The notes beneath the pieces were generated by a model that worked only from the letters and a program-made list of their open reading frames with translations, searched no databases and was not told the DNA's origin. A program made the position numbers and the translations under genes. 64,000 bases of DNA, taken from IMG/VR virus record IMGVR_UViG_3300033752_000289. One strand, 5' to 3'. The number at the start of each line of letters is the position of its first letter. Positions within the stretch are counted from its first letter, which is position 1. This document shows, one piece after another, positions 17,425-31,075 of the stretch. Source of the DNA: a virus.

Positions 17425-17432
17425 CGGAGCCA

Positions 17433-17474
17433 AAGACTGTGGGCCTCGACCGTCCGGTCGAGGCCCACAGTCTT
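17433..17474. terminator. bidirectional terminator, 19-bp perfect stem
   Basis: aagactgtgggcctcgacc gtcc ggtcgaggcccacagtctt, between convergent genes. Confidence 0.7.
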
Positions 17475-18052
17475 CACGCCGTCTGCGCCGCGGCCTTGAG
17501 CGCAGGCCCGAGCAACTCCCCGAGGGTGACCCGCTGGTCGTCCGCGAGCTCCATGAGGGCGAGCACCTCGTCCGGGTGTGCGTTGAAGATCGTAATGAGG
17601 GCCTGGTTGACCCGCGACATGTCCACACCCCGGGCGAAGGTCTGCTGCTTGAACGCCCAGTGCTCGCCTGGCGGCAGGTAGACCTGCAGCGGCTTGCGTG
17701 ACTCCCCGAAGGACGCCGGCATGTCCGGCACCCCCGGATACCCGCTCCGGGCCCGGGCCCGGAGCGTTGCCCGCCGGCTCGTCGACCGTGGTTGCACGGC
17801 CAACGGCCGGGTCGGCTCCGGGTCAACTGCGGCCGGGCGCTCCTCGCGAGCTGCCGGTCTCGGCTCGGGCTCGACGGCCGGCGGCGGGTCAGCCGGGGGC
17901 TCCTTGGGAGGGGCCGGCACCACCGCGTGTGTTCCGGTGGCCTCCTGCATCACCGAGTCCAGCACGGCACTGCCGGTAGTTGGTCGGCCGAAGGCTCCCA
18001 TCCCACCAGGGACGGGAACTGTGGGCGACGGCCGCGCCGGCTTGGTCGCCAT
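17474..18052 (-). CDS. ParA partner protein (putative centromere-binding adaptor, no recognised ParB fold)
   Basis: Start overlaps the parA stop (TGATG). Pro-rich N-terminus and a helical C-terminal domain. Confidence 0.5.
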   Translation of the reverse strand: MATKPARPSPTVPVPGGMGAFGRPTTGSAVLDSVMQEATGTHAVVPAPPKEPPADPPPAVEPEPRPAAREERPAAVDPEPTRPLAVQPRSTSRRATLRARARSGYPGVPDMPASFGESRKPLQVYLPPGEHWAFKQQTFARGVDMSRVNQALITIFNAHPDEVLALMELADDQRVTLGELLGPALKAAAQTA

Positions 18053-20178
18053 CAGGCCACCACCTCCGCAGCCTGGTCAGCCTCCTCGGCCGCAGGCACC
18101 ACCCAACGTCGCACGAGTTCTTGAGCCATCGCCCGGAAGGCCTTCGATGCCTTCTCCTTCGGGGCATAGACAGTGATTGGCAAGTGGGCGGTGGTGGCCT
18201 CCCGCATCTTCACGGTGTCGGGCACCGAGCCGATCACCGCGCCCGGGTACGCATCACGGAATCCCTCGATGAGCTGGGTGTCGAAGATCGAGTTCGGCTT
18301 GGTGCGCCCGACCACGATGGCCGCGATCCGCAGGTCTGGCCGGTCCATCAGGCGCTGTACCCGATCGAGTACGTCGAGCAGTTCCTGCATACCCACCGTG
18401 TCGAGGTCGGACGCCTGCAACGGGATGATGATCTCGTCCGCGGCCGCAATTGCACCGACTGCGATCACGTCCAAGGTGTGGGGGGCATCGATGATGTCGA
18501 TGTTGACCTCGGCATCGGAGCCAGCCAGGGCGCGGCGCAGTACCTGATCCGCTCCGGCGAGCCGATCTTGCTCGACCACGCGCATGCTGGTCCAGCTCGG
18601 CACGATGAGGAGATTCTCGACCGTGGTCAGCGAGGTCACGTGGTCGATCGTCAGGTTGCCGGTTCCATAGAGCAGCGTCTTGTAGACCTCGAGTAGGCCG
18701 GTCTCTACTTCCTGCTGGGGCGGTAGCCAGTGCGTCACCGACCCTGCCTGCGGGTCAGCGTCGATGACCCGCACAGTGAGGCCCATCTCGGCAAACGCGG
18801 CGCCGAGGTTGACCGCGGTGGTGGTGTTGTGGACGATCACGTCGTTGGCAACGAAGCAGTGGGTCTCGTCGACCGTGAGGTCGTAGACCTGCTGCTCGCC
18901 AGCTGGCTCGACAGACACGATCCGATCCCAGTAGACGTCGGTGTCTGTCCGGTACAGCCAGGAGAGCTCGTCCTCGACGCCGAACACCTCGGCGAATGCC
19001 CGGAGCGGGCCGCGGCAAATCTGCCCGCTGCCGCCATTGACCAAGAAACTGAACTGGAAGTGACCCCGGTTGTAGCCAAGTCGCTCCCCGACCATCCTCA
19101 TGGTCGGGGCGCCTGCCTTGCCACGCGCAGTCGGTGCGAGCTCGCGGAGTCTTTGCCGCAGCGGCTCGGTCATCGTCGGGAACCCGAGATTGGACGTGCC
19201 GGGCTGCTCCGCCATCGAGATGAGTCGCTCCTTCTTCTCCCCCCAGAGTGGGATGTGCGTGAGGAAAGCCGGCCACGAGACCTTGGGGACCGAGAGTCGC
19301 CACGCCTCGAACGCCTTGCCGTTTAGTTTGGCGTCAGCCCGCCGGACGGTCGACTGGACGCCGAACCGTAGCAGCAGGTGCTGGAGCGCCCGGACCAGCG
19401 ACTCGGAGGCGAGTACGACACGGGGCCCATCCTTCGGCATCGAGCCATCGCACATCCAAAAGATGCCCAGGAAGTCAGCCAGCTGGTCTTCCGGCAGGCG
19501 GTAGACCGCCGTGGGCATCGTCTTGTGCTTGGCGAGTTTGGCGATGCCGTGCTCGCGGGCGAACGCCATAGGACCGGCCAGTCGCGGCCCGTTGATCCGG
19601 TAGTCATACCGGCCGATGTGTGTCACCGTCCACCCCAGTGCCTGAGCCGCGTCCGTGGCCCGTCGCAGCATCTCCGGGTCAGCGGTGCTGAATCTGGCCT
19701 GACGCTGGGACAGGCCGCCCTCTGCGAGCAGCAACGCCAGCATGGTGACCTCGGCGTCCTTGAGCCGTACCGGGTCGGACGGATGGGGCAGGCGCCGCGG
19801 CAGCGCGGCCGTGTGGCCGATCGTGAGCTCGTCGGCGCGCCTCCAGCCGTCGGGCAGCAGGAATGGATGGTTGGGGGTGCAGGTCACCGACCGTCCCGAA
19901 GCGAACGTGACCTTGAGGGTCGGCCGGACGCCGTTGTCGACCTTCGCCGCGATCGGGGCAGGGACGATCGTGGTCCGGTCTCGCAGGGTCACGACCTGAT
20001 CGTGCTGCGGGTCGGTCATCACCTCGTGCAGCGTGCGGGGCACCCCGGTCACCGGGTCGGGGATCAGCGTGTCGCCGGCCAGGCACTTGGTGGTGCCGCC
20101 CTTGTGGTTGATCACCGTGAGCACCACCCGCTTGCTCAGCTTGGGTGGTGGCGGTGGGGTCTTCTGCTTCGGAGGCAT
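18052..20178 (-). CDS. parA: ParA/Soj-type partition ATPase interrupted by a 420-aa intein (exteins 31 + 257 aa)
   Basis: INHKGGTTK | CLAGDTL...VIVHN | TTTAVNLGAAF. The joined exteins give the deviant Walker A KGGTTKTTT. IDADPQ follows downstream. Confidence 0.9.
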   Translation of the reverse strand: MPPKQKTPPPPPKLSKRVVLTVINHKGGTTKCLAGDTLIPDPVTGVPRTLHEVMTDPQHDQVVTLRDRTTIVPAPIAAKVDNGVRPTLKVTFASGRSVTCTPNHPFLLPDGWRRADELTIGHTAALPRRLPHPSDPVRLKDAEVTMLALLLAEGGLSQRQARFSTADPEMLRRATDAAQALGWTVTHIGRYDYRINGPRLAGPMAFAREHGIAKLAKHKTMPTAVYRLPEDQLADFLGIFWMCDGSMPKDGPRVVLASESLVRALQHLLLRFGVQSTVRRADAKLNGKAFEAWRLSVPKVSWPAFLTHIPLWGEKKERLISMAEQPGTSNLGFPTMTEPLRQRLRELAPTARGKAGAPTMRMVGERLGYNRGHFQFSFLVNGGSGQICRGPLRAFAEVFGVEDELSWLYRTDTDVYWDRIVSVEPAGEQQVYDLTVDETHCFVANDVIVHNTTTAVNLGAAFAEMGLTVRVIDADPQAGSVTHWLPPQQEVETGLLEVYKTLLYGTGNLTIDHVTSLTTVENLLIVPSWTSMRVVEQDRLAGADQVLRRALAGSDAEVNIDIIDAPHTLDVIAVGAIAAADEIIIPLQASDLDTVGMQELLDVLDRVQRLMDRPDLRIAAIVVGRTKPNSIFDTQLIEGFRDAYPGAVIGSVPDTVKMREATTAHLPITVYAPKEKASKAFRAMAQELVRRWVVPAAEEADQAAEVVA
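18826..20085 (-). mobile_element. intein in the ParA P-loop with a LAGLIDADG-type homing-endonuclease domain
   Basis: Starts with Cys (CLAGDT) and ends HN, followed by a +1 Thr. LALLLAEGG and FWMCDGS blocks. Coordinates come from counting residues 32-451. Confidence 0.85.
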
Positions 20179-20505
20179 GTCGGTCCTCTCGATGGATGGG
20201 ATAGAGGGCTGCCGCGCAGTGTGACCGCGCGCGCACGCGCGATCAAGGAGGCGCGCGGACTACCGCGCACCCGATTTGGCCGGACCCCTCCCAATTCGGC
20301 CAGCCAGACCACCACCCGGCCCGTACGCCGGCCCGCCACGCCGCTACCCCGCCACCCAGGCAGCCGTCGACCCGGCCTGACGGCGTGCCGCCAGACCAGC
20401 CAGCCACACGGCTGGCACCCTGGACGGAGAGCGTGCCGGCAAGCCCCCCGCTGTGCACGCCGTCCAGCCCGCCGGGAAGCAAGCCTCACAGCCAGGCGGG
20501 CATCA

Positions 20506-20617
20506 GGCCAGCCGGGCGGATTGCGGAGCGGCGATCCTGGCGACTATCACTCCTCCACGCACGCCCGGCTGGCCGCCATCTCGTCGCCCGGCTGGCCGTC
20601 GTCCCAGCCGGGCGGCC
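20506..20617. repeat. four copies of CGCCCGGCTGGCC (two in each orientation), candidate parS or operator
   Basis: Copies at 20506-20519 (reverse complement), 20562-20575, 20585-20597 and 20604-20617 (reverse complement). They lie in the 505-bp gap upstream of parA. Confidence 0.4.
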
Positions 20618-20630
20618 TTCATGACGGCCA

Positions 20631-20644
20631 TCATGACGTCATGA
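20631..20644. promoter_or_regulatory. perfect 14-bp palindrome TCATGACGTCATGA (site 1) with an extra half-site at 20619-20626
   Basis: Read directly. Lies in the gap between the parA start and the stop of the HTH gene. Confidence 0.7.
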
Positions 20645-20683
20645 AGGCATGACCCCCTGACGGCCGGGAGGCGGGACGGCAGG

Positions 20684-21448
20684 TCAGCCAGCGGGGCTGA
20701 CTGCCGGGGTGGTAGTGGGCCGTCGGGCTGGCAGGACCGCACGCAGCTTGGCCACCGCGTCGACCACCTGGCTGGGCAGCTGTCCGGGCGGCAGGGACTC
20801 GAGCTTGTCGCACAGCAGGCGACCCTGCGAGATCGCTGCCGGCCGGACCGTCCTGGCGCCATGCAGGATGTACGCGAGGTGGTCGACGTCCTCCACGATG
20901 TCGTCCGAGAGAGCCCCGCGGTACTCGCCCATGGTGCGCAAAAACAGCGCCAGAGGCGTCCTGAGCGCCTCACGGGCCCTTTCCTCGGCCTCTCTCTCGC
21001 GTGCGGCCCGTTTCGCGGCCTCACGGGCCTCCTGGCGGCGTTTCCGGGCCTCCTTGTCGTCCTTCGAGCCCCCCTCGGGGTCAACGAGGTTCTCGAGTCG
21101 GCGCACGGTCATCTCGACCGCCTGCCGGGTGGTCACCCCGAGTGCCGGCGCGATGCGGGAGTAGGGGATCTCGTGGGCACGCACAGAGCGCAGAACCCTG
21201 AGCATCAGCTCGTCGAGCTCCCGCTTGACGTGCCGCAAGATGAGGAGCGCGTCGGATAGGTCCTCCGCCAGGACCTCGGCCGGGACCTGCTGGTAGCGAC
21301 AGACGTATTCGACCAGGGCGACCGCGTTGTCCGGGAGTTTGCTGAGGTCGGGGTCGCGACAGTCGTACCTGCGCTGGCCGATCCGATCGGCTGCCTTCTC
21401 GGCGACGTCGCGCGGGACCTTGGGGCGGCGGACGTTTCCCTTCGGCAT
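20684..21448 (-). CDS. HTH-containing regulator-like protein (254 aa)
   Basis: IPYSRIAPALGVTTRQAVEMTVRRL followed by a charged coiled coil. Flanked by TCATGACGTCATGA palindromes. Confidence 0.6.
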   Translation of the reverse strand: MPKGNVRRPKVPRDVAEKAADRIGQRRYDCRDPDLSKLPDNAVALVEYVCRYQQVPAEVLAEDLSDALLILRHVKRELDELMLRVLRSVRAHEIPYSRIAPALGVTTRQAVEMTVRRLENLVDPEGGSKDDKEARKRRQEAREAAKRAAREREAEERAREALRTPLALFLRTMGEYRGALSDDIVEDVDHLAYILHGARTVRPAAISQGRLLCDKLESLPPGQLPSQVVDAVAKLRAVLPARRPTTTPAVSPAG

Positions 21449-21534
21449 GGCGTCAATGATTTCATGGACGCCTGCGAGCTAGGATTAGGCGCGCGGTGGT
21501 CATCGATCGAGCTGTCCGTCATGACGGCAAGCAA

Positions 21535-21548
21535 TCATGACGTCATGA
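21535..21548. promoter_or_regulatory. TCATGACGTCATGA (site 2) with a half-site at 21519-21526
   Basis: 87 nt upstream of the start of the HTH gene 20684..21448. Confidence 0.7.
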
Positions 21549-21765
21549 GCCCCCTGACCTGCGAAAACGCAACTCCGTCAGCGACGGTGGATCGAGGGAA
21601 GGAACTAGAAGTGGACGCCGATGCGGAGCGGTTCAAGCAATTGGTCCGCCGGCAGAGCGATGCGTTCCGGGGACGACGCGGTGGCGCCCGCCCTGTCGTC
21701 TCCGTTGGCGGCGTCGTGGATACCGGCCTGGGCGCGTGAAGACCAACCGTCATGACAGCTGGCCA

Positions 21766-21779
21766 TCATGACGTCATGA
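21766..21779. promoter_or_regulatory. TCATGACGTCATGA (site 3) with a half-site at 21749-21757
   Basis: Overlaps the last codons and the stop of the DUF3560 gene. Confidence 0.7.
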
Positions 21780-22474
21780 AGGCCGTGACCTGCGGGGCCA
21801 GCCCATCGGCCTCGGTCCGGAGCCGTTGCTCCCACTGCTGGTTGCCGGCGGACGTGGCCTTGAGCAGCGCACGGTCGACCTTCCGGGCCTCGGCCTCGAG
21901 CCGCGCGATCCGCCGCTCAATCACCCGCGGGTCGGTCCGATGCGCCTGATGGGCGGTCACCGCGGCCGCCCGGGCGGTCAGCTTCTCGGCCTCCGCGATG
22001 AGCTCCAGGCCCCGGTCGACCTTCGCGATCGCCCGGTCCCGGGCCCGCCGGAACCCTCCCGCCGAGTGGTGGTCGACCAGCACAGGCTGCCCCAGCGGGA
22101 TCTCGTCGAGCCGCTCCCGGCCCCGCTTGTACAGCGCCAGACCGTCCGCCGAACGTCTCTCCGCCCGGGCAGCGAGCCGGTCAGCACGGGCCGCGGCCCG
22201 GGCCGCCCGGTCCCGCTCGACCGCCTCGATGGGCCGCGGCGTGTTGTCGACGTGCACCTCGACGTCGTGTCCGGCGGCCCCGCAGAGCCGCCGCTAGGGA
22301 GTCAATCAGCGCCTGGTCGGCGTCGCGGTCGCGGCTGCCCCGCAGGTACCAGCCGACCTTGCTAGACCACCGGAACTGGTGCCGGTGGAGGATCGGCTGG
22401 GTGCCGTCGCCGCGGCTCGTACCGGTCACGAGGGTGCCGTCGGCGTGGCTGTGGCTGATGGTGATGGTGCTCAT
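21766..22474 (-). pseudogene. DUF3560-family gene split by a 1-nt frameshift at a G4 run
   Basis: N-terminal part MSTITISHSHADGTLVTGTSRGDG (ORF 22181..22489). C-terminal part in ORF 21766..22257. Removing one G at 22278-22281 gives LRAAGHDVEVHVDNT. Confidence 0.7.
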
Positions 22475-22494
22475 CCGGGCGCCTCCCAAAACCG

Positions 22495-22513
22495 TGCGGG
22501 TCGCTCACCCGCA
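22495..22513 (-). promoter_or_regulatory. PH element copy
   Basis: The reverse complement is tgcgggtgagcgacccgca. TAGACT lies 7 nt upstream on the minus strand. ATG at 22474. Confidence 0.7.
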
Positions 22514-22718
22514 CACACCTAGTCTAGTCGTGGGCATCGGTCCCGGCCCTCGCGTACGCGCGCGTGCGCGCGTCTGTGCGCGAGAGACGAGCCAGCCGGG
22601 GCCCAGGGGCGTGAACTTCACGCGAATATGAAAATCGGCTACCGCGTCTCCCTAAACGCGCTGGTGCCCCGCAGGACCGCGCCTACGGGGCACCAGAAAG
22701 TGCGCTCGAGACGCGCGC

Positions 22719-24098
22719 CTACGACGCTGAATCAGATCCGCGCACCGCGCCCTCCAGCGCGGGCAGCGCGGTCGTCAACGACGCGGTGGTCGCCCTGAGG
22801 CGCGCGACTTCCTCGGCAATCTGGGGCGGCAGCTCCGCGCGCGGCTGGCGCGCGCCCTCGACGACCTCACGCGCGTACCGCTCGCGGAACTTGGAGTTGC
22901 GCGCGTTGCGCGCCCCACCATCGGATCTGCCCAGCTCAGGCATCAATTCGGTCGCGCTGCGTTCCGTACCGGTCTCATCCAGCTGGCGCGCGTAGTCGCG
23001 GTACATCTTCTCGCGCGGCGGTGTCCACCAGGGGTCCGTAGGGCGCGCGCCGCGGGCGCGCTGACGCGACGCGCGTCCACGGTCCTGAGCGCGCGCCGCG
23101 CCCGCGTCGCCCTCGTCGAGGTCCGGCGCGGTGCGCGCGTCGACCGGCGCGGTCACCGCGCGCGCCCCTGCGGCTGAGGTCGCCGCGGCGACCGCGCGGG
23201 GGACCGCGCCGTTGACGGTGGGCGGAGGCGCGCTCTGCCGCGTCGGCAGCGGGACCGGTGCTTGCTCACCGCGCCGGCCGGTGCGACTGAGGATGGTCTC
23301 GGCCGCCAACTCGGTGGCCATGAGCGTCGAGTAGCTACCCCAGTTGATCTTCTCGGCCAGCTCGGCGGCGAACCGGTTCGGGTCGTAGATCTCGACAATC
23401 GCCTTTGCCACGCGCCGGTTGTGCGCCTGCTCCAGCCGCCACTGGACGAAGGCGTTCATCCGCTTCCGGAGCCGGACCTGCCGGATCGACTCGTGCAGGC
23501 CAAGGCCCTCCTCGATGGCGATAGCCCGGGCCTGTGCGGTCTCGATCGGGTGACGCAGCCAGCGCCACAGACCGTACGCCGGCCCGGTGTCTCGCATCTT
23601 GCCGGCGGCCCGGAGCTCGTCCCGCCGGCGGTGCTCCGACCGGATCAGCCAGATGATGTAGGCCAAGCCGCTCATGCCGGCGAAGAACGCTGCCTGCATG
23701 ATGTGATCTTGGTGCCCGAACCAGTTCAGCAACACGGCACCGATGGCCACCGCCGCAGACAGCAGCCGCTCGATGATGGCCTGCTCGCCCAGGCGGCGAC
23801 GCTCATCGGCGAGGGCGAGCAGGTACACGCCGCCGATCTCGACTCCGATGACCGCCACGACCGCGAACTGCAGCGGCCACTCCAACCAGTTGACGGCGGC
23901 CGTGGACGATCCCCAGGCGGCGATGCCCAACGCCCACAAATAGAACAGCGAGCCGATGACCGTGAGGTTCCCGTGCAAGGAGAACCGCTTCCTCGGCGGC
24001 CCGGCCTTGCTGGGCGGCGTTGTCGCTGGCGCCGGTCCGGCCGCTGCCGTCACCGCCTTCGGTGGAGGCGGCGGGGGAGGAACGGCGGTGTCGGTCAC
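22719..24098 (-). CDS. DUF2637-like membrane protein with a long Arg/Ala-rich tail
   Basis: Pro-rich N-terminus, then 4 TM helices (LFYLWALGIAAW.., FAVVAVIGVEIGGVYLLAL..). Sits next to the FtsK-like gene, as in actinomycete conjugative elements. Confidence 0.65.
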   Translation of the reverse strand: MTDTAVPPPPPPPKAVTAAAGPAPATTPPSKAGPPRKRFSLHGNLTVIGSLFYLWALGIAAWGSSTAAVNWLEWPLQFAVVAVIGVEIGGVYLLALADERRRLGEQAIIERLLSAAVAIGAVLLNWFGHQDHIMQAAFFAGMSGLAYIIWLIRSEHRRRDELRAAGKMRDTGPAYGLWRWLRHPIETAQARAIAIEEGLGLHESIRQVRLRKRMNAFVQWRLEQAHNRRVAKAIVEIYDPNRFAAELAEKINWGSYSTLMATELAAETILSRTGRRGEQAPVPLPTRQSAPPPTVNGAVPRAVAAATSAAGARAVTAPVDARTAPDLDEGDAGAARAQDRGRASRQRARGARPTDPWWTPPREKMYRDYARQLDETGTERSATELMPELGRSDGGARNARNSKFRERYAREVVEGARQPRAELPPQIAEEVARLRATTASLTTALPALEGAVRGSDSAS

Positions 24099-24499
24099 GC
24101 AGGTACCCCTTCCTTCTCTCTCTCCTTCTCGGCGGCGGTGATGTGGTGGCGCAGAGTCGACTCGTTGACCCCGAGCTCCCGAGCCACCGCCCGCCGGGAC
24201 ATGCCGTGCACTTCCTCCAGCGCTTTCACCACTGCGACGAGCTCTTCGCGGACTCGACGGCGCCGACGGTCGAGCTCCTCGAGCTCAACCACTCGGCACC
24301 AGGCCAGACGGACCAGCTCCTCAGCGGAGGCCCGACTGACCAACTCCTGGACGGTCACCCGGACGAAGCTAGGAACGAAACCGGCCAGGGCCGCGCAGCT
24401 GTCCGCGCATCGGTGTGTCGGGGGCCGGGGGCGACGGTGGCCGCCGCCCCCGGCCCGCACCTTCCTTGCCCCGGGTCGCTCACCCGGACTCCTTCCCAT
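24095..24499 (-). CDS. small HTH protein; true start probably downstream of 24499 (e.g. GTG near 24358)
   Basis: C-terminal HGMSRRAVARELGVNESTLRHH. The N-terminal 45 codons of the ORF run through two PH hairpins. Confidence 0.5.
   Translation of the reverse strand: MGRSPGERPGARKVRAGGGGHRRPRPPTHRCADSCAALAGFVPSFVRVTVQELVSRASAEELVRLAWCRVVELEELDRRRRRVREELVAVVKALEEVHGMSRRAVARELGVNESTLRHHITAAEKEREKEGVPA
24471..24487 (-). promoter_or_regulatory. PH element copy (tandem pair, proximal)
   Basis: The reverse complement is ccgggtgagcgacccgg, followed by AAGGAAGG. Confidence 0.6.
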
Positions 24500-24500
24500 C

Positions 24501-24517
24501 GCGGGTCGCTCACCCGC
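24501..24517 (-). promoter_or_regulatory. PH element copy (tandem pair, distal)
   Basis: The reverse complement is gcgggtgagcgacccgc, 13 nt upstream of the other copy. Confidence 0.6.
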
Positions 24518-24520
24518 GGC

Positions 24521-24718
24521 TCACACGACGAAAGCCAGCACCACACCGACGAGGCTCGCGACGACCAGCGCGAGGGAGGCCCATCCGAGCACGGCACCCA
24601 GGCGACGCCAGTCGGTACGGAGCCGAACCACCTGCCGCGGGACAAAGGGCTGCCGCGGCGGGGCCGGTGGGGTGATGACGCGGACCTCGACTCGAGGACG
24701 CTCACGAATGGCGGTCAC
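24521..24718 (-). CDS. small C-terminally membrane-anchored protein
   Basis: GTGA overlap with the FtsK-like stop. C-terminal LGAVLGWASLALVVASLVGVVLAFVV. Confidence 0.45.
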   Translation of the reverse strand: MTAIRERPRVEVRVITPPAPPRQPFVPRQVVRLRTDWRRLGAVLGWASLALVVASLVGVVLAFVV

Positions 24719-26619
24719 TCCGAGGCTCCCTTCTTGATCCGCCACATGCCGTGACGGGGCTTCAACACCTCGCCGGCGTTCAGGGCCCGGGTGAGCGCCT
24801 CTGACACCGTGGTCACGTTCAGCCCGAGCGCCTTGGCGATCGCGCCAGTGCCCATCGGCTTGTCCTGCTCCGCGAGGAGCGCGACGGCACGCTTCCGGGC
24901 GCTGCCACCCGGGTCATCGGCCGTCGCTGGCTCGGCATCGGCCGCGGGCGACGGAACGAGGTACGGGCCGAGACCCGTGGTGACTCCGGTCGAGGCGTAG
25001 TCGTAGGGGTCAGCCAGTAGGTACGCCCGGAACGGGCTGGTTCGCGGCTGGGGGCCGAGCAGGTAGCCGAGGCCGGCAGTGGTCTTGCCGCCCGGGAACT
25101 CCCGGGGGAGGTTCCGCGGGTCGACCGGCAGGTTGCCGTTGAAAGCCACCTGTCCGCTGAGCGCGTTGGCGGTACGGAACACGATGACGTTTCCGGCCGA
25201 CACCATGTCGCGCAGCGTGGTCGATCCGCCCAGCTGGTCCAACAGCGGCACCTGGACGACCAGCCGTAGCTTCAAGCCGCACTTGCGGCCCATCTTCGCG
25301 ATCTCTTCCACCGCGCCCTTGGCTACGGGGTCGGCCAGTACCACTGAGGCCTCGTCGATGGTGATGACGACGAGCGGCAACTCCGGGGTCGGGTCGAACG
25401 CCGACTTGCCCTTCCGCTGGTTGCCCCGCTCGTCCACCCACGGGGCGGTGGCGAGGTGCTCGTTCCTTGCGTACATCAGGTCCCGCATTTCGATCAGCAG
25501 CTGGCGGGCCTGGTCGACACTCTTAGCGAACCGTGCTGTCGCCGAGGTCTCCAGCCACACCGGCAGCGACTGGCCGCCCTGCGGGTCGATCACCACCGAT
25601 GCCATCAGCGGGCTGTGGCGCTCGTAGGTGAGCAGCACGTTCAGGATGCTCGACTTACCGGAGCCGGTGGTGCCGGCGATCAGGTCGTGCACCGGGCCCG
25701 ATCCCGGGGTCCAGAACCGGTACATCGCAGGGGCACCGTCCGGGTAAATCCCGATCGGCGCGATCCCGGTCTCCTCGTCGAGGAGATGCGGCCCGGGGAA
25801 CTCCCGGGTCTCGTGCAGCGGGTTGCGGGTGTAGAGCGTCACCACTGCCTTGTTCGCCGCACCGTCCGGCGCAGCCTCGATGGCGATGTCGCTGGGCGCG
25901 ACCCCGAACGCCGACGCGACGCGCTCGGTGGCCGCGATCGCGTTGGCGGTGGTGGCCCGTCCACGCGGTAGAAGGACGATCGCCCGCTGCCCAAGGGGAG
26001 GCCCTCCATCGGCAGACGGAACCTCCTCCAGGTCCGTAAGCACGGACCCCGGCAGAGGCCCGCCCTGCTCGGCAACGGCAGCGCGCCATGTTTCGACCAG
26101 CGGCGAGACCTCTTCCGGGGGGAGGACCGGAGCGGGCCGCCGCCGGTGATGCCACCACCAAGCGAACCCGCCGACCAGGAACAGGATGAACATCGAGGCG
26201 CGGACGGGCGGGATGAACCCGAACGCAGCGCATGCAATCAGCCAGGCGGACATGAGCGTCCACATCGTCCAGATCGCGACGAGCCGCCGCTGAGGCATCC
26301 GGCCGCGCCGACGGGTGCGGTAGTGCTGCCACACCAACAGCGCGATGCCGGAGAGCACGTCGACCGCGATGGCGGTACGGGGCCCGTCCGGGGCCGCATG
26401 CAGCGCCGCACCGACGATGCCGTAGACGATGAGGGTGTAGATCGGTGCGAGGTTGCGCCGACGGGTCCACAAGCTGCGCAGGGCCCGCTTCATCAGGGCG
26501 CGCGCCGCGGCGCGGAGCCGCACGCCGATGGGGACACGTCGGCCAAGATGGTCACGCTTCGGCGGTAGTAGTCCGGTGGGTGCCGCCGACGGAACGGGCG
26601 GCGGGGCCAGCTGTGTCAC
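24715..26619 (-). CDS. FtsK/SpoIIIE-family DNA translocase (TraB-like) with N-terminal TM helices and a C-terminal winged HTH
   Basis: Walker A GTTGSGKS and Walker B VVITIDEAS. C-terminal GTGAIAKALGLNVTTVSEALTRAL. Confidence 0.9.
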   Translation of the reverse strand: MTQLAPPPVPSAAPTGLLPPKRDHLGRRVPIGVRLRAAARALMKRALRSLWTRRRNLAPIYTLIVYGIVGAALHAAPDGPRTAIAVDVLSGIALLVWQHYRTRRRGRMPQRRLVAIWTMWTLMSAWLIACAAFGFIPPVRASMFILFLVGGFAWWWHHRRRPAPVLPPEEVSPLVETWRAAVAEQGGPLPGSVLTDLEEVPSADGGPPLGQRAIVLLPRGRATTANAIAATERVASAFGVAPSDIAIEAAPDGAANKAVVTLYTRNPLHETREFPGPHLLDEETGIAPIGIYPDGAPAMYRFWTPGSGPVHDLIAGTTGSGKSSILNVLLTYERHSPLMASVVIDPQGGQSLPVWLETSATARFAKSVDQARQLLIEMRDLMYARNEHLATAPWVDERGNQRKGKSAFDPTPELPLVVITIDEASVVLADPVAKGAVEEIAKMGRKCGLKLRLVVQVPLLDQLGGSTTLRDMVSAGNVIVFRTANALSGQVAFNGNLPVDPRNLPREFPGGKTTAGLGYLLGPQPRTSPFRAYLLADPYDYASTGVTTGLGPYLVPSPAADAEPATADDPGGSARKRAVALLAEQDKPMGTGAIAKALGLNVTTVSEALTRALNAGEVLKPRHGMWRIKKGASE

Positions 26620-26715
26620 TGTCGTCGTTCCTTACTCAGGCGGGATGCTGGATGGGGCCGGCCCGCGCACAGGGGTGGCGGGCGGGGGAGATGCGGGCCG
26701 GCCCCATGGGTGGGG

Positions 26716-27504
26716 TCAGGCGTTGACGTAGGCCTCCTTGCGGGCCATACCGCCGGCCGCGGCGGCCGCGTCCTGGATGCCGCGGTGCCGGTACAGCTCA
26801 TCGAGAACGGCGGTGGTCTCCGCGAGCCGCTGCTCGGCGGCCTCGAGCTTCTTCCGAGCCGCCTCCTCGTCGGCGCGGTTCGACTCGATCAGGGAGAGGG
26901 CCTTCGCCTTGAGGGTGTCCGGGAAGTCGAGCGCAGCGATGGTCTCGGCGTCGGCCGTGACGCGAGCCAGATCCTGCTGCGCCCGGGTGACGGCGGCCTG
27001 GGCCTCCTCGAACTCGGTCTGAGCGTCCGCACGGAGCTGCTCGTACTCACGGATCGCGGTCTCGAGGTTCTCGATCACGACGGGCTCAGATGCCATGGAT
27101 TCCTCCGATGGTTGAGTAGTGGTGGTTTTCTGCTGCTCGTCGACCGGGGTGGTCGGCGGCTGTTCAGCCGCTCTCTGCTGCGGCGGCTGAGGACTAGGAG
27201 GAGCGGACGGCCGCGTCTGCTGCTCGGGCTCGGGGTTCACTACCGGGCGGATGCGGCCGTACTCCCAGCCGATGCGCAAACCGGCACGGCCGGCCGCAGC
27301 CCACATGCCGAGGGCGAAGAACAGGCCGGACAGCCAGCTGGCGGTACGTCCGGGTTGGCCAGCGGCGCGGCGGGCCTTCTCCTGCTCGACGGCCGTCCGC
27401 CAGGCGTCCATGACCGCGCGGACGCGGGTGGTGGTGGCGTTGGTCAACGACCGGATGCCGGCCGCGGCGAAACCAAGCACCAGGAGTGTGAACAGGATCT
27501 CCAT
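26716..27504 (-). CDS. membrane-anchored coiled-coil protein
   Basis: N-terminal TM helices, a Pro/Gln linker and a long helical C-terminus. Confidence 0.55.
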   Translation of the reverse strand: MEILFTLLVLGFAAAGIRSLTNATTTRVRAVMDAWRTAVEQEKARRAAGQPGRTASWLSGLFFALGMWAAAGRAGLRIGWEYGRIRPVVNPEPEQQTRPSAPPSPQPPQQRAAEQPPTTPVDEQQKTTTTQPSEESMASEPVVIENLETAIREYEQLRADAQTEFEEAQAAVTRAQQDLARVTADAETIAALDFPDTLKAKALSLIESNRADEEAARKKLEAAEQRLAETTAVLDELYRHRGIQDAAAAAGGMARKEAYVNA

Positions 27505-27507
27505 GCG

Positions 27508-27972
27508 TCACACTCCGAAGACCCAGCTGACGCCCGAGGCGATGAGCGCCGCCGGGATGGAGATGATGGTCATCACGATCTGGCCGGCTGCGCCGGGGAT
27601 GAGCGCGGCGGCGGGCGGCGCGACGCTGGCCGCGATCAGCGTTCGATCGTCGATGCGGTTCTGGTAGAGGCGGAAGGCCAGATAGGCGATGATCGTGAAG
27701 GCCAACAGGCCGGCGACAACAGCCCCGGTGAACTTGCCGATGATGCTGCCGACGAGCTGGTCACCGGTGTTGATCACCCCGGCGACCCACTGCCCGACCG
27801 GACTGGCGGTCAGCCCGACCGAACCGGTGATGATGAGGGCCACGACGAGTCGCGGCCAGGCGTGGTTGCCGAACACCCAGATGAGGATGCCGGCGACCAG
27901 GCAGATGATCCCGACGGCGAGTGACACACCGCCGATCAGTCCGCTGAGTTCAGGGAACACGGGAACCTCCAT
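27508..27972 (-). CDS. integral membrane protein (4 TM)
   Basis: 154-aa hydrophobic ORF, 3 nt upstream of the next gene. Confidence 0.6.
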   Translation of the reverse strand: MEVPVFPELSGLIGGVSLAVGIICLVAGILIWVFGNHAWPRLVVALIITGSVGLTASPVGQWVAGVINTGDQLVGSIIGKFTGAVVAGLLAFTIIAYLAFRLYQNRIDDRTLIAASVAPPAAALIPGAAGQIVMTIISIPAALIASGVSWVFGV

Positions 27973-28177
27973 TGAGGGATTGAGCGAAGTCGCGGATCAG
28001 CCGGCCCAGCTGCCGGTAGGCGTCGGGTCGGTGCTCCGCGGGTAGGTCCTCGATTAGGGCGCGCGTCGCGTCGTAGTAGTACGCGCAGAGACGCGCGGGG
28101 TCGTTGCCGGCGGCGGCGCGCTTGCGCGCGTAGTGCGCGGCGACGCGGGCGCGGCGCGCTTCCTGCCGCCGGCTCAC
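27950..28177 (-). CDS. hypothetical small basic protein
   Basis: 75-aa ORF overlapping its neighbours by 4 and 23 nt. Confidence 0.45.
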   Translation of the reverse strand: MSRRQEARRARVAAHYARKRAAAGNDPARLCAYYYDATRALIEDLPAEHRPDAYRQLGRLIRDFAQSLNGGSRVP

Positions 28178-28425
28178 AAGACGGTGAGCAGGTCGTCACC
28201 GTCTTCGTCGACGGTGAATGTGCTGATGACGCGCTGGTCCTTCGGCGAGTGAATGTCGATGCGGAACCGGGACAGATCGAAGTCGTCGGTCCCGTTCCGC
28301 TCGGTTGCCCAGCGGACCAACAGCTTGCGGAGAACTCGCGCGCTACGGGGATTGAGGTGAACCCTCTTGTCCCCGAGGTGCTTGGAGCCCTCGTACAGCT
28401 TCACGACGTGCGGGAACGCCGCCAT
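28174..28425 (-). CDS. hypothetical protein, first gene of the leftward membrane/translocase operon
   Basis: 83-aa ORF. An 18-bp inverted repeat and AGGGGG lie upstream. Confidence 0.55.
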   Translation of the reverse strand: MAAFPHVVKLYEGSKHLGDKRVHLNPRSARVLRKLLVRWATERNGTDDFDLSRFRIDIHSPKDQRVISTFTVDEDGDDLLTVL

Positions 28426-28508: not shown

Positions 28509-29723
28509 TCAGCGGCCGCGGCGTGTCGCGGCCAGCACCGCAACCGCGGCCGCCGCGTAGACCGCGACCGCGAGGAGGATCGGGGCGCGCAGCGATACCA
28601 CGGCGAGCGCGCCACCGATGAGCGCGCCGAGCGGGCCCGCACCGTTGCCGGCGAGCCGGAACGTGGAGATGACGCGGCCGAGCATCTCGGCCGGGGTGTG
28701 CCGCTGACGCGCGCCAGAGATGACGACCCCGGCGACGGAGACTCCGGCCCAGCAGAGCGCGAGTCCGAACCCGCCCAGCAGCGGGTTGGTCGCGGCGGCC
28801 AGCAACCCGAATCCGACGGCGTGGCTGACGAGCGCCACTCCGAGCGCCCGGCCGGTGGGCAGCAGCCGCAGCAGACGCGGCGCGACCATCGCACCGGTGA
28901 GCCCGCCGACGGCCATCGTGGCGAGCAGCAGCCCGTACCCGGCCGGCGCCATGCCGAGCCCAGCCGGGTCAGTCGCGTACAGCACGAGCGTGGCCGTGGC
29001 CGCGTTCCACGCCGCGTTGGCCACCGCGGTGAGCGCGGCGAGCGCGCGGAGCTGGCGGTGCCGCGCGAGCCACCGGATACCGTCGCGCAGCGACGCCCAC
29101 ACCGATTCGTTCGTGCGCGGCGGCCGGGGCGTGGCCGGCGTCGCCGCGGTCAGCGCGGCCGACGCGGCGAGCGTCGCCGCGTGCCCGACGAACGGCAGCC
29201 ACGGCGCGAGGGCGAACCCGGCCGATCCCGCCGGCGGCCCGACCAGCTGCCGGCCGAACATGTTCCCGGCCTGCAGATGGCTGTTCGTCGCGTTCAGCGT
29301 CTCCGGGTCACGGTCGGCCAGGTCCGCGACGGTGGCCTCGAGCGCGGCGGAGTGGAACACCAACCCGGTGACGATCAGGAACGCGCACGCGGACAGGGCC
29401 GGGATGGACGCGGCCCCGAGGGCGACCAGCAGCGCGAGCGCGGCGAGCGCCAGGCCTCGCACCACATCGGACACGATCATGGTCGTCCGGCGGGGCCACC
29501 GGTCCACCCACACGCCGGCGAGCGGGGATACGAGAAGCCATGGGGCGGTCTCGGCCGCGACCACGACGGAGACCGCCGCGGGGTCGCGGGTGACGGTAGC
29601 GGCGGCCAGCGGCGCCGCGGCGAGGAACACGCCGGCGCCTGCTGATGAGGCCGCGTTCGCTGCTACGAGAAGCCGCAGCCCACGCCGGCGCTGAGGCGTG
29701 GGCTGCGACAGGTCTACATGCAC
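28509..29723 (-). CDS. MFS transporter (about 12 TM)
   Basis: Hydrophobic throughout. DRWPRR-type loop after TM2. I chose the GTG at 29723 because the longer ORF overlaps the DUF397 gene. Confidence 0.7.
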   Translation of the reverse strand: MHVDLSQPTPQRRRGLRLLVAANAASSAGAGVFLAAAPLAAATVTRDPAAVSVVVAAETAPWLLVSPLAGVWVDRWPRRTTMIVSDVVRGLALAALALLVALGAASIPALSACAFLIVTGLVFHSAALEATVADLADRDPETLNATNSHLQAGNMFGRQLVGPPAGSAGFALAPWLPFVGHAATLAASAALTAATPATPRPPRTNESVWASLRDGIRWLARHRQLRALAALTAVANAAWNAATATLVLYATDPAGLGMAPAGYGLLLATMAVGGLTGAMVAPRLLRLLPTGRALGVALVSHAVGFGLLAAATNPLLGGFGLALCWAGVSVAGVVISGARQRHTPAEMLGRVISTFRLAGNGAGPLGALIGGALAVVSLRAPILLAVAVYAAAAVAVLAATRRGR

Positions 29724-31022: not shown

Positions 31023-31075
31023 AGGCATGCCGTCATGGCGTCATGAACGCAAACCCGCTACAGTGATAGTTGGTG

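What the first reader, a model, noticed from the sequence alone, without database searches (positions are those of the whole stretch)
17474..28425. Plasmid / conjugative-element-type module inside a tailed-phage genome
One 11-kb leftward block encodes ParA with a coupled partner and an FtsK/SpoIIIE translocase that has TM helices and a C-terminal winged HTH. It also encodes a DUF2637 membrane protein, DUF3560 and at least four small membrane or coiled-coil proteins. This is essentially the gene set that Streptomyces-type plasmids and AICEs use for partition and dsDNA transfer and spread (TraB plus Spd-like proteins). The same contiguous sequence carries tail-fibre-like genes, holin-like genes and an endolysin. 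No integrase is visible in the 64 kb. The sequence may therefore be a phage-plasmid that can also move, or exclude incoming DNA, through a TraB-like pore.
Basis: inference. Interest (0 to 1): 0.65.

Follow-up and report, generated by a model that had tools for sequence, protein, structure and literature searches.

The report
Phage-plasmid carrying a conjugation-type DNA pump
The block is real: a roughly 126-kb tailed phage of a Streptomyces-like host carries a plasmid partition system and a TraB-like DNA translocase cassette otherwise found on actinomycete plasmids and integrative elements, a combination already demonstrated experimentally in the Streptomyces plasmid-phage pZL12.

Summary
The leftward block runs from 17474 to 30892, further than reported. 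It encodes an intein-interrupted ParA, a ParG-like partner, a split DUF3560 gene, an unnamed membrane protein (not DUF2637), a TraB-like translocase with four upstream small genes, an MFS transporter and an XRE/DUF5753 regulator.

The sequence is a genuine siphovirus. Contigs 100% identical in their overlaps extend it to capsid, tape measure and tail genes. One 126,536-bp contig is identical over 2,341 overlapping bases. Independent assemblies span the block, so it is not a chimera.

The translocase cassette recurs in AICE-like elements, linear and circular plasmids, another tailed-phage contig and PhiNon1. The capsid matches cultured phage Gilgamesh (which also has ParA, FtsK-like translocase and two tyrosine integrases) and eight 125–145-kb actinomycete "plasmids". 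The phage-plasmid reading is therefore well supported for the lineage.

One caveat: a XerD-like tyrosine recombinase lies about 24.6 kb beyond the window.

Conjugative or intramycelial dsDNA transfer is the most likely role of the cassette, but this is inferred only. No clt was found. pZL12 (2010) is a functional precedent, so this is a new member of a known kind.

The parts
17474..18052 (-). ParG-like partition adaptor (192 aa): disordered Pro/Ala-rich N-terminal half and a conserved C-terminal domain of about 85 aa
   Evidence: Its start overlaps the ParA stop by one base. The family has 23 representatives. The family profile hits the ParG RHH domain, PDB 1p94, E 4.6e-5. Single members hit Pfam Antitox_RHH or ParG weakly. 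The C-terminal part is 48% identical to the 86-aa gene next to the ParA homologue on Micromonospora plasmid NZ_CP107937. AF2 on the single sequence gave low confidence.
18052..20178 (-). ParA-type partition ATPase (288-aa extein) interrupted by a 420-aa LAGLIDADG intein in the Walker A loop (intein DNA 18826-20085)
   Evidence: Pfam AAA_31, CbiA, Intein_splicing and LAGLIDADG_3. NCBIfam ParA_partition, intein_Nterm and intein_Cterm. Junctions read KGGTTK|CLAGD...VHN|TTT. The extein is 57% identical to the ParA of NZ_CP107937.
20409..20613 (.). Four copies, in both orientations, of GCCCGGCTGG-type repeats upstream of parA. Candidate centromere (parS-like) site.
   Evidence: The 8-mer cluster analysis found this array, whereas Markov-shuffled sequences gave none in the direct-repeat control. 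The 11-mer CCCGGCTGGCC occurs only here in the window. The function is inferred.
20631..20652 (.). Two overlapping copies of the palindrome TCATGACGTCATGA (operator-like), about 450 bp upstream of parA
   Evidence: The window holds 6 copies against 0.12 expected.
20684..21448 (-). 254-aa protein of unknown function
   Evidence: Coding-like GC3 of 0.86. No significant Pfam, PHROG or NCBIfam hit.
21535..21779 (.). Two further exact copies of the palindrome (21535-21548 and 21766-21779), flanking the g254 upstream region
21766..22489 (-). DUF3560 gene split into two reading frames (N-part 22489-22181, C-part 22257-21766)
   Evidence: PF12083 E 3e-24 on the C-part. Frame analysis. A fused 235-aa sequence still scores E 7e-24. 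The sequence of this stretch is 100% identical in one independent Logan assembly (L036), and three further Logan assemblies call the same 163-aa DUF3560 ORF.
22719..24098 (-). 459-aa membrane protein (3-4 N-terminal TM segments, long C-terminal tail). Member of a tiny unnamed family, not DUF2637. Possible SpdB2 analogue.
   Evidence: Hydropathy. Only 4 homologues were found. Conserved RRRLGE, NWFGH and FFAGMS motifs. No DUF2637 hit. A 68-residue stretch of the C-terminal tail (residues 362-428) is 43% identical to a protein 0.8 kb beyond the translocase gene (two small ORFs lie between) on NZ_CP107937.
24095..24499 (-). Small HTH protein (134 aa; 87 aa by another start call)
   Evidence: HTH_23 E 3e-5. 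Gene tables.
24521..24745 (-). Small protein with one C-terminal TM helix, overlapping the translocase stop
   Evidence: Hydropathy 2.77. Called as 65 aa in independent assemblies.
24715..26619 (-). TraB-like membrane-anchored dsDNA translocase (634 aa): N-terminal helix bundle, FtsK/HerA-type motor, C-terminal winged HTH
   Evidence: PF01580. Best NCBIfam hit plasmid_TraB, E 6e-18, 64.6 bits, far below the 800-bit cut-off; ArsR-like hit at 580-627. AF2 model and Foldseek hits to TcpA, FtsK and EccC. 205 actinomycete plasmid records hit. 83 homologues, best 48% identity.
26716..27504 (-). 262-aa protein with an N-terminal TM helix and a Gln/Glu-rich helical C-terminal half. Spd-like by position.
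   Evidence: Syntenic homologues in L004, L002, L015-L021 and L050. Hydropathy.
27508..27972 (-). 154-aa polytopic membrane protein (4-5 hydrophobic segments). Spd-like by position.
   Evidence: Homologues (29-43% identity) lie upstream of the translocase (in the same cassette) in 12 loci and in L050. Hydropathy.
27950..28425 (-). Two small genes (75 aa and 83 aa) that head the cassette
   Evidence: Syntenic homologues in L004, L020, L022 and L050.
28509..29630 (-). MFS transporter (373 aa), a cargo gene
   Evidence: MFS_1 E 3e-18 and MFS_3 E 2e-15. Called in independent assemblies.
30011..30892 (-). XRE-type regulator (HTH_31 + DUF5753, Sco1979 family). Candidate repressor that reads the palindrome.
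   Evidence: Pfam and NCBIfam. phrog_9908. 46% identical to the regulator next to the ParA and Tra cassette on NZ_CP107937, where a 1-mismatch palindrome lies between that regulator and ParA.
31009..31046 (.). Two palindrome copies in the divergent region between the regulator and the first rightward gene
11720..13185 (+). Candidate replication module outside the reported block. Six CGGGGTGACA iterons (11720-11887) lie in a 1.2-kb gene-free gap, followed by a DnaC/IstB-like ATPase (12313-13185).
   Evidence: TRF score 104. 8-mer cluster. phrog_50 and IstB_IS21. 47% identical to a gene beside the ParA pair on NZ_CP107937. The origin function is inferred.

Best explanation
The block is the plasmid-lifestyle module of a temperate siphovirus of about 126 kb infecting a Streptomyces-like actinomycete.

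Shown:
1. It encodes a type Ib-like partition pair. This is a Walker-type ParA that must first splice out an intein from its P-loop, plus a ParG-like ribbon-helix-helix adaptor.
2. It encodes an XRE/DUF5753 regulator.
3. It carries a five-gene cassette of two small proteins, a polytopic membrane protein, a TM/coiled-coil protein and a TraB-like translocase. The same cassette occurs on actinomycete plasmids and AICE-like elements.

Inferred:
1. The prophage is kept mainly as a low-copy episome. ParG-like dimers would bind the GCCCGGCTGG repeats upstream of parA and recruit ParA.
2. The regulator binds the 14-bp palindrome. The palindrome occurs at the divergent switch region, upstream of parA and g254, and just after the recombinase gene. 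Maintenance genes would thereby be coupled to the lysogeny circuit.
3. The translocase forms a membrane hexamer and recognises phage DNA through its winged helix. Together with the adjacent membrane proteins, it would pump double-stranded prophage DNA across hyphal cross-walls or into neighbouring mycelium. The element could then spread without virions, as shown for pZL12.
For: Phage identity:
- Contigs 100% identical in their overlaps (L035 directly with the window; L043 and L047 chained to it through L035) add capsid (PF05065), tail terminator, tail tube, a 972-aa tape measure, Dit and fibres on the left.
- On the right they add SNF2, DnaB and other genes.
- A 126,536-bp contig is identical over 2,341 overlapping bases.

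Episomal lifestyle:
- ParA and the ParG-like pair.
- The pair is conserved at 57% and 48% identity on a circular Micromonospora plasmid, next to the same regulator, Tra cassette and DnaC-like gene.
- The capsid matches eight 125-145-kb plasmid records of complete actinomycete genomes. One is circular NZ_CP107821, which carries capsid, portal, ParAB, DUF2637 and FtsK/SpoIIIE genes.
- No contig longer than 200 kb carries three of the phage's genes that were looked up.

TraB-like role:
- The best family hit is plasmid_TraB.
- The architecture is TM bundle, motor and winged HTH.
- The fold matches conjugative TcpA and FtsK.
- The cassette is syntenic with AICE-like and plasmid loci.

Recurrence in phages:
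- L004 (tape measure, holin), PhiNon1 (PMC5431353) and Gilgamesh gp10.

Precedent:
- SpdB2 homologues in actinophages were proposed to aid spreading of phage DNA (PMC4447253).

Operator logic:
- 8 palindrome copies in 111 kb, all at the sites listed above.
Against: - No experiment or read-depth data exist for this element.
- A XerD-like tyrosine recombinase (339 aa) lies about 24.6 kb right of the window. About 15-17 kb of the genome was not seen.
- No clt-like 8-bp repeat array was found near the translocase gene.
- The translocase scores far below the TraB equivalog cut-off (64.6 against 800 bits). It shows no BLASTP similarity to the pZL12 translocase.
- The small cassette proteins match no characterised Spd family.
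- ParA function depends on intein splicing, which was not tested.
- The DUF3560 gene in the block is split, so some decay is possible.
Confidence: 0.55

Rival explanations
1. The element is an ordinary integrating temperate phage. The XerD-like recombinase would be its integrase. The par genes would act only transiently or be a leftover, and the Tra cassette would be a captured moron.
For: A tyrosine recombinase lies in the same genome. Gilgamesh is annotated with two tyrosine integrases. PhiNon1 both replicates and integrates at a tRNA-Val gene (PMC5431353). L004 carries an excisionase-like gene.
Against: The recombinase is Xer-sized and has no arm-binding domain hit. It sits among rightward genes far from the regulator. 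It has no homologue in Gilgamesh or NZ_CP107821. Relatives are deposited as plasmid records in complete genome assemblies (one checked and circular). The par pair is intact and conserved with a true plasmid. pZL12 and P1 also carry Xer/Cre-like recombinases while being plasmids (P1 from general knowledge).
Confidence: 0.2
2. The FtsK-like protein serves vertical inheritance, not horizontal transfer. It would clear the 126-kb episome from closing vegetative or sporulation septa and activate Xer-type dimer resolution, as chromosomal FtsK does.
For: FtsK-fold motor with a DNA-binding winged helix. It co-occurs with a Xer-like recombinase and ParA here and in Gilgamesh. The palindrome is shared between the block and the recombinase locus.
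Against: Its closest relatives lie in AICE-like elements and plasmids within Tra/Spd-like cassettes. The best HMM hit is TraB. The cassette occurs in AICE-like elements that lack par genes.
Confidence: 0.15
3. The cassette is an exclusion or defence device. It would block entry of competing plasmids or phages, or abort transfer, rather than move the prophage.
For: The cassette consists of membrane proteins plus an ATPase. Kil/kor-type toxicity of unregulated traB is known (PMC4447253). The genome carries other host-interaction cargo, including an MFS transporter, a beta-lactamase-like gene and an ADP-ribosyl toxin-like gene.
Against: No PADLOC scan or other defence evidence was obtained. Homologues sit in elements whose known biology is transfer.
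Confidence: 0.07
4. The window is an assembly chimera, or it is a large plasmid that merely carries a defective prophage.
For: Metagenomic origin. The contigs looked up at the window's left edge break inside or just after the tail-fibre gene.
Against: Logan contig L036 (25 kb, a different sample and assembler) is 100% identical to window 16767-34098 and so covers the reported block and its flank on either side; three further Logan contigs (L037-L039) carry the same genes on either side of the block in their gene tables. GC content is uniform. Plasmid-type and phage-type genes are interleaved.
Confidence: 0.03

Closest known systems
Streptomyces plasmid-phage pZL12 / phiZL12 (GQ919031; Zhong et al. 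2010, J Bacteriol 192:3747)
   Same: A tailed-phage genome of about 90 kb maintained as a plasmid. It has parA/parB, an FtsK/SpoIIIE-type tra gene with adjacent membrane-protein genes, and a Xer-like recombinase. Conjugal transfer needs the major tra gene plus two neighbours (PMC3583192).
   Different: No BLASTP similarity between the two translocases. pZL12 has a type Ia ParA/ParB pair rather than ParA with a ParG-like partner. Among the block, regulator and recombinase proteins compared, none matched pZL12 at the thresholds used; pZL12 was not among the capsid matches listed. pZL12 is described as a singleton (PMC7157519).
Streptomyces phage Gilgamesh (MN234216, 129 kb) and eight 125-145-kb actinomycete plasmid records (seven Streptomyces, one Thermobispora; e.g. 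NZ_CP107821)
   Same: Same size class. Capsid, head-tail, tail-tube and chaperone genes share 33-43% identity (the tape-measure protein matched the plasmid only, at 25%). They also carry a ParA-like gene, an FtsK-like translocase behind a run of small genes, and a DnaC-like ATPase.
   Different: Only about 15 of 190 ORFs give hits at E<=1e-5. Translocase identity is 27-28%, limited to the motor. The window's small cassette genes gave no match to them at E<=1e-5. Their par systems differ. The window's recombinase is absent from them. No publication on this group was found.
TraB / Spd transfer system of Streptomyces plasmids and AICEs (pSVH1, pIJ101, pSAM2 type)
   Same: A membrane-anchored FtsK-like motor with a C-terminal winged HTH, preceded by translationally coupled small membrane proteins. 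The best HMM hit is plasmid_TraB. The closest homologue context is translocase, then DnaB/DUF3987 replicase, then integrase.
   Different: Far below the TraB equivalog score. No GntR TraR/Kor regulator. No clt repeats found. No match to named Spd families. The host replicon is a phage.
PhiNon1 of Nonomuraea gerenzanensis (NZ_LT559120, 59 kb; PMC5431353)
   Same: A self-replicating plasmid-phage element with a homologous translocase (32% identity), preceded by small genes and a DUF2637 protein. It has an XRE/DUF5753-like regulator.
   Different: It is smaller and is documented to integrate at a tRNA-Val gene.
ParF/ParG (TP228) type Ib partition systems
   Same: A small Walker-type ParA plus an RHH adaptor with a flexible N-terminal tail, with repeats upstream of the operon.
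   Different: ParA carries an intein. The adaptor is 192 aa, against 76 aa for ParG. Binding sites were not tested.

Membership tests
TraB (Streptomyces conjugative dsDNA translocase) | N-terminal membrane anchor | tested here: met
   AF2 helices 31-159 and hydrophobic segments at 57-75 and 113-149.
TraB (Streptomyces conjugative dsDNA translocase) | FtsK/HerA-type motor with Walker A and B | tested here: met
   PF01580. GTTGSGKS at 316 and VITIDEA at about 418. Foldseek hits to TcpA and FtsK, E 1e-13 to 1e-14.
TraB (Streptomyces conjugative dsDNA translocase) | C-terminal winged HTH that reads the clt | tested here: met
   Three helices and a beta-hairpin at 574-628, pLDDT about 90. ArsR-like hit at 580-627. 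Homologues carry MarR, IclR or Fe_dep_repress hits. DNA specificity was not tested.
TraB (Streptomyces conjugative dsDNA translocase) | clt locus with direct 8-bp repeats near the gene (PMC4447253) | tested here: inconclusive
   No 8-mer array above the shuffled background in 22.0-31.1 kb. Degenerate repeats could have been missed.
TraB (Streptomyces conjugative dsDNA translocase) | Score above the NCBIfam plasmid_TraB equivalog cut-off | tested here: not met
   64.6 bits against a cut-off of 800. It is nevertheless the best-scoring family.
TraB (Streptomyces conjugative dsDNA translocase) | Mediates plasmid transfer and pock formation | not testable with these tools
   Requires mating assays.
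Chromosomal FtsK/SpoIIIE | Match to FtsK equivalog models or the FtsK gamma domain | tested here: not met
   No FtsK model appears among NCBIfam hits at E<=0.1. No FtsK_gamma hit in Pfam. All genomic contexts are mobile elements.
Type Ib partition system (ParF/ParG-like) | Walker-type ParA without an N-terminal HTH | tested here: met
   288-aa extein. ParA_partition, AAA_31 and CbiA hits.
Type Ib partition system (ParF/ParG-like) | Small ribbon-helix-helix centromere-binding partner encoded downstream | tested here: met
   Family profile against ParG 1p94, E 4.6e-5. Overlapping stop and start codons. The AF2 single-sequence model was of low confidence.
Type Ib partition system (ParF/ParG-like) | Repeated centromere site near the operon | tested here: inconclusive
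   Four GCCCGGCTGG-type repeats at 20409-20613. Binding was not tested.
Phage-plasmid | Complete virion gene set on the same replicon | tested here: met
   Capsid, connector, tail tube, tape measure, Dit, fibres and endolysin. Terminase and portal were not reached.
Phage-plasmid | Plasmid maintenance genes (partition, replication) | tested here: met
   The par pair (above). Iterons plus a DnaC-like gene, and DnaB.
Phage-plasmid | Extrachromosomal state of the prophage | not testable with these tools
   Indirect only. Genome-length contigs of 119-128 kb were found, and none above 200 kb. Relatives are deposited as plasmids; the one opened, NZ_CP107821, is circular.
   A XerD-like tyrosine recombinase lies at window coordinates of about 88.6-89.6 kb. 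Its function is undetermined.
AICE | Integrase, replicase and Tra modules together in an element of 9-24 kb (size range from general knowledge of AICEs, not tested here) | tested here: not met
   No replicase or integrase is adjacent to the cassette. The element is a 126-kb phage. The AICE-like relative L002 does have these modules.
DUF2637 (PF10935) | Pfam HMM match | tested here: not met
   No hit at E<=5. hhalign against two DUF2637 proteins gave probabilities of 0.2% and 3.5%.
DUF3560 (PF12083) | Pfam HMM match | tested here: met
   E 3e-24, 86 bits against a cut-off of 27.
Intein | N-terminal Cys, C-terminal His-Asn, nucleophile at +1, splicing blocks and an endonuclease domain | tested here: met
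   C32 and H450-N451|T452. Intein_splicing, LAGLIDADG_3, TIGR01445 and TIGR01443 hits.

The most novel reading that the evidence does not exclude
A whole, so far undescribed lineage of 125-145-kb actinomycete siphoviral phage-plasmids may exist. It would comprise this element, Gilgamesh and at least eight 'plasmids' of sequenced isolates. These elements routinely keep a TraB/Spd-type dsDNA pump wired into the lysogeny regulon. They would then have two horizontal routes: virions, and virion-free conjugative or intramycelial spread across hyphal cross-walls. The pump cassettes appear to be exchanged with AICEs and plasmids.
Probability: 0.35. Interest if true: 0.7.

Novelty: new member of a known kind. 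Interest (0 to 1): 0.45.

Why it matters
Surveys of phage-plasmids detect conjugation through relaxase and type IV secretion markers (from my own knowledge of those methods). They therefore miss the one-protein TraB route used by mycelial actinomycetes. This element and its relatives suggest that large Streptomyces phage-plasmids commonly carry such a pump. If it works, the prophage and its cargo could move between hyphae without making particles. The cargo here includes an MFS transporter, a beta-lactamase-like gene and an ADP-ribosyl toxin-like gene. Only pZL12 has been examined experimentally. Gilgamesh is in culture, and the NBC strains carry related plasmids, so the question is directly testable. 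The intein in the ParA P-loop would also make partition dependent on protein splicing.

Tried and rejected
- Megablast of the block and of 39-64 kb against phage and plasmid collections found no match.
- IMG/VR scans with the translocase and the 952-aa tail protein found nothing. The genome-collection scan returned relatives but not the element itself.
- PDB sequence search with the translocase found nothing.
- The DUF2637 assignment was rejected.
- BLASTP of the translocase against pZL12.71c showed no similarity, so direct homology with the pZL12 tra gene at pairwise-sequence level was rejected.
- The word-index homologue search for the ParA partner found nothing. The exhaustive search did find relatives.
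- AF2 of the partner without an alignment was uninformative.
- The search for clt-like 8-mer arrays was negative.
- The Micromonospora plasmid that shares the par, Tra and regulator set looked like an ordinary plasmid in the 80 kb inspected. It was not counted as a phage-plasmid.
- Kitasatospora plasmid NZ_CP108210 (in the 39 kb inspected) is likewise an ordinary linear plasmid.
- An ARAGORN tRNA-Ala call inside the tail-fibre gene (L043 14429-14508) was treated as spurious.
- The pZL12 paper itself (PMC2897331) is not held. Its content is cited through other papers and my own recollection.
- The chimera hypothesis was rejected.

Full report
**What is in the sequence**

The window has about 70% G+C. 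Third-position GC statistics give a clear gene map:
- rightward genes from 1 to 17424;
- a leftward block from 17474 to 30892;
- rightward genes from 31027 to the end.

The reported block (17474-28425) is therefore real, but it is 2.5 kb shorter than the transcriptionally co-directional unit.

Reading the block in the direction of transcription (high to low coordinates), it holds the following.
- An XRE-type regulator with HTH_31 and DUF5753 domains (30011-30892), then a 77-aa gene.
- An MFS transporter (28509-29630). My GC3 filter missed it. Gene callers on independent assemblies found it and Pfam confirmed it.
- Two small genes of 83 and 75 aa.
- A 154-aa polytopic membrane protein.
- A 262-aa protein with one N-terminal TM helix.
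- A 634-aa FtsK/SpoIIIE protein.
- A small protein (65 aa by the independent gene calls, 74 aa from the first start codon) with a C-terminal TM helix.
- A small HTH protein.
- A 459-aa membrane protein.
- A DUF3560 gene.
- A 254-aa protein of unknown function.
- ParA, followed by a 192-aa partner whose start overlaps the ParA stop.

**Checking the individual claims**

*ParA.* It is confirmed.

*The partner.* It has no Pfam hit of its own. An exhaustive search found a small family of 23 representatives that share its C-terminal domain of about 85 residues. A profile of that family hits the ribbon-helix-helix domain of the partition protein ParG (PDB 1p94, E 4.6e-5). Single members hit Pfam Antitox_RHH and ParG weakly. 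Four GCCCGGCTGG-type repeats lie upstream of parA. Together these features look like a type Ib (ParF/ParG-like) partition system. The centromere assignment is inference.

*The translocase.* It has a Walker A motif (GTTGSGKS). The confident AF2 model (pLDDT 83.9) shows an N-terminal helix bundle, an alpha/beta domain, a RecA-like motor and, after a disordered linker, a three-helix winged-helix domain. Foldseek places the motor with the conjugative coupling protein TcpA, FtsK and EccC.

*DUF3560.* It is confirmed (E 3e-24). However, the gene is split into two frames. The sequence of this stretch is 100% identical in one independent Logan assembly (L036), and three further Logan assemblies call the same 163-aa ORF.

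*DUF2637.* It is not confirmed. The 459-aa protein gives no Pfam hit at E<=5 and has only four homologues. It does not align with two annotated DUF2637 proteins by hhalign. It is a membrane protein in the position where related plasmid modules carry a DUF2637 protein, so it may be an analogue.

**TraB or FtsK?**

- Against NCBIfam, the best family is plasmid_TraB (E 6e-18). EccC, VirB4 and TraD models follow, and no chromosomal FtsK model appears.
- The score of 64.6 bits is far below the equivalog cut-off of 800. The protein is a distant relative of characterised TraB, not an equivalog.
- tblastn finds 205 actinomycete plasmid records (176 of them Streptomyces) at up to 42% identity. Among phages it finds only a weak hit to Gilgamesh (two GenBank records) and a weaker one to Bacillus phage DLc1.
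- The protein database gives 83 homologues, the best at 48% identity.
- One close homologue (P0003, 47% identity; the closest, P0002, is 48%) lies in a typical AICE-like element. There the order is small genes, translocase, a DnaB/DUF3987 replicase and a tyrosine integrase.
- The four genes upstream of the translocase are syntenic with those upstream of its homologues in that element, in Streptomyces genomes, and on linear and circular plasmids.

The cassette therefore belongs to the plasmid/AICE transfer-gene pool. I found no array of 8-bp direct repeats near the gene of the kind that defines a clt (definition from PMC4447253). That defining feature remains open.

**Is it a phage, and is the assembly sound?**

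- A JGI contig identical to the first 898 bases of the window extends it 10 kb to the left. That stretch holds a tail terminator, tail tube, chaperone, a 972-aa tape measure, Dit, minor tail proteins and the full 606-aa tail fibre.
- Further contigs add an HK97-type capsid.
- To the right, identical contigs add SNF2 and DnaB helicases and many small genes.
- One contig, Ga0373397_000156, is 126,536 bp and 100% identical to the window over the 2,341 bases available for comparison. The window corresponds to its last 64 kb. Other contigs of 119,018 and 128,395 bp carry genes of the same phage (the 128-kb one was checked only for genes lying just outside the window).
- Logan contig L036, from a different sequencing run and assembler, is 100% identical to window 16767-34098, which covers the reported block and its flank on either side. 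Three further Logan contigs (L037-L039) show the same genes on either side of the block in their gene tables. A prophage/AICE assembly chimera is excluded.

**Integrase**

Within the window I found no recombinase. This rests on family scans of all ORFs above about 150 aa in the regions not covered by precomputed gene tables.

Outside it, about 24.6 kb to the right, the same genome encodes a 339-aa tyrosine recombinase. Its best matches are XerD/XerC models (E 4e-31, below their cut-offs).
- It is Xer-sized and is not adjacent to the regulator.
- It has only 30-35% identical relatives on assorted plasmids.
- It has no homologue in Gilgamesh or NZ_CP107821.
- pZL12, a proven plasmid-phage, also has a Xer-like recombinase.

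The enzyme could be a dimer resolvase or an integrase, and sequence alone does not decide. About 15-17 kb of the genome (terminase and portal region) was not reached.

**Relatives**

The capsid protein gave the most informative result.
- It matches, over its full length at 39-44% identity, eight records deposited as plasmids of complete actinomycete genomes, all 125-145 kb.
- It also matches the cultured Streptomyces phage Gilgamesh (129 kb) at 40%.
- The best plasmid, NZ_CP107821 (132.6 kb, circular), carries capsid, portal and tail genes, ParB/ParA, a DUF2637 protein and an FtsK/SpoIIIE protein behind nine small ORFs.
- Gilgamesh is annotated with an FtsK-like translocase, ParA-like and ParB-like proteins and two tyrosine integrases.
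- The structural modules are shared with the present phage at 33-43% identity (the tape-measure protein matches the plasmid only, at 25%). Little else is shared.
- Two further tailed-phage elements carry closer versions of the window's cassette. One is a 62-kb Logan contig with a tape measure and holin. The other is PhiNon1 of Nonomuraea, published as a self-replicating plasmid-phage that also integrates (PMC5431353).
- A circular 203-kb Micromonospora plasmid shares a syntenic set with the window: the regulator (46%), the cassette, ParA (57%), the ParG-like partner (48%) and the DnaC-like gene (47%). In the 80 kb inspected it otherwise looks like an ordinary plasmid.

**Regulation**

- The 14-bp palindrome TCATGACGTCATGA occurs six times in the window against 0.12 expected, and twice more just after the recombinase gene.
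- All copies lie at four kinds of site: the divergent region between the regulator and the first rightward gene; upstream of parA; around the g254 upstream region; and at the recombinase locus.
- A one-mismatch copy lies between the homologous regulator and ParA on the Micromonospora plasmid.
- I infer that the XRE/DUF5753 protein binds this operator and ties the maintenance genes to the lysogeny switch.
- A separate iteron array (CGGGGTGACA, six copies at 11720-11887) lies in a gene-free gap before the DnaC/IstB-like gene. It is a candidate origin.

**Mechanism and rivals**

The best-supported reading has two parts.
- The element is a phage-plasmid. Its block provides partition, regulation and a TraB/Spd-like DNA pump.
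- The pump moves double-stranded prophage DNA across hyphal walls.

The first part rests on the par pair and on plasmid-borne relatives. The second rests on homology, architecture and context, and on two pieces of published precedent. pZL12 transfer needs its tra genes (PMC3583192). Thoma et al. suggested that Spd homologues in actinophages help phage DNA to spread (PMC4447253).

The rivals are:
- an integrating lifestyle through the Xer-like enzyme;
- a role of the translocase in septal clearance and dimer resolution;
- exclusion or defence.

None of these is excluded. The chimera explanation is excluded.

**Novelty**

Streptomyces plasmid-phages with par and tra loci have been known since pZL12 (2010). 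Actinobacterial phage-plasmids have been surveyed (PMC10023795). Gilgamesh has been in GenBank since 2019 with the relevant annotations. The present element is therefore a new member of a known kind.

It does have its own features: a type Ib par system with an intein-split ParA, a cassette of AICE/plasmid lineage unrelated at pairwise-sequence level to the pZL12 tra gene, and an operator regulon.

I found no paper on Gilgamesh or, in searches on Streptomyces phage-plasmids and phage FtsK-like translocases, on the Gilgamesh-like phage-plasmid group as such or on TraB-like genes as a recurrent feature of it. That gap is what gives the finding moderate interest.

Noticed in passing
window 18826-20085 (-), inside ParA 18052-20178: A 420-aa LAGLIDADG intein sits in the Walker A loop of the partition ATPase (KGGTTK|C...VHN|TTT). 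Partition would depend on protein splicing.
   Followed up: partly
window 44133-47150 (+): The 1005-aa C5 DNA methyltransferase carries a second intein (Hint_2, LAGLIDADG_3 and Intein_splicing hits between residues 141 and 512).
   Followed up: partly
window 28509-29630 (-): An MFS_1/MFS_3 transporter gene lies between the Tra cassette and the regulator. It is phage-borne cargo of unknown substrate, and a simple GC3 filter misses it.
   Followed up: partly
window 21766-22489 (-): The DUF3560 gene is split into two overlapping reading frames (N-part 22489-22181, C-part 22257-21766). The stretch is 100% identical in one independent assembly (L036), and three further assemblies call the same C-part ORF. 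It could be a pseudogene or a programmed frameshift.
   Followed up: partly
window 20631, 20639, 21535, 21766, 31009, 31033; L045 19465 and 19485 (window coordinates 89635 and 89655): The 14-bp palindrome TCATGACGTCATGA occurs 8 times in 111 kb. All copies lie at the switch region, the par and g254 upstream regions, and the end of the recombinase gene. A 1-mismatch copy lies between regulator and ParA on Micromonospora plasmid NZ_CP107937.
   Followed up: yes
window 11720-11887: Six CGGGGTGACA iterons, including a 23-bp tandem repeat (TRF score 104), lie in a 1.2-kb gene-free gap upstream of the DnaC/IstB-like gene. This is a candidate replication origin.
   Followed up: partly
window 42147-42413: A second gene-free gap holds tandem repeats (GGCACCCAC, 4 copies; 15-bp units). 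Its function is unknown, and it is 16 kb from the translocase.
   Followed up: no
L045 18451-19470 (about 24.6 kb right of the window end): A 339-aa XerD-like tyrosine recombinase lies in the same genome, followed by a 266-aa gene and an Rmf/CrpP-like 77-aa gene.
   Followed up: partly
L047 2677-3618; L040 5807-7411; L040 16581-17027: Cargo genes outside the window: a beta-lactamase2-family protein between capsid and head-tail genes, a 534-aa ADP-ribosyl exotoxin-like protein, and an ArdC-N antirestriction-like protein.
   Followed up: no
window about 1-900 (tail-fibre gene, L035 9008-10828): Several independent contigs start or end inside or just after the tail-fibre gene (window positions of about -20, 78 and 898). 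This suggests strain variation or a repeat that breaks assemblies there.
   Followed up: no
window 33093-33752 (+): A 219-aa HTH_23 protein is 31% identical to the annotated small terminase subunit of Gilgamesh (gp85). It lies among early genes, far from the structural module.
   Followed up: no
window 5090-5790 (+): Two small proteins with 2 and 3 predicted TM helices lie directly after the tail genes. The endolysin-type gene is 52 kb away, at 57922-58959.
   Followed up: partly
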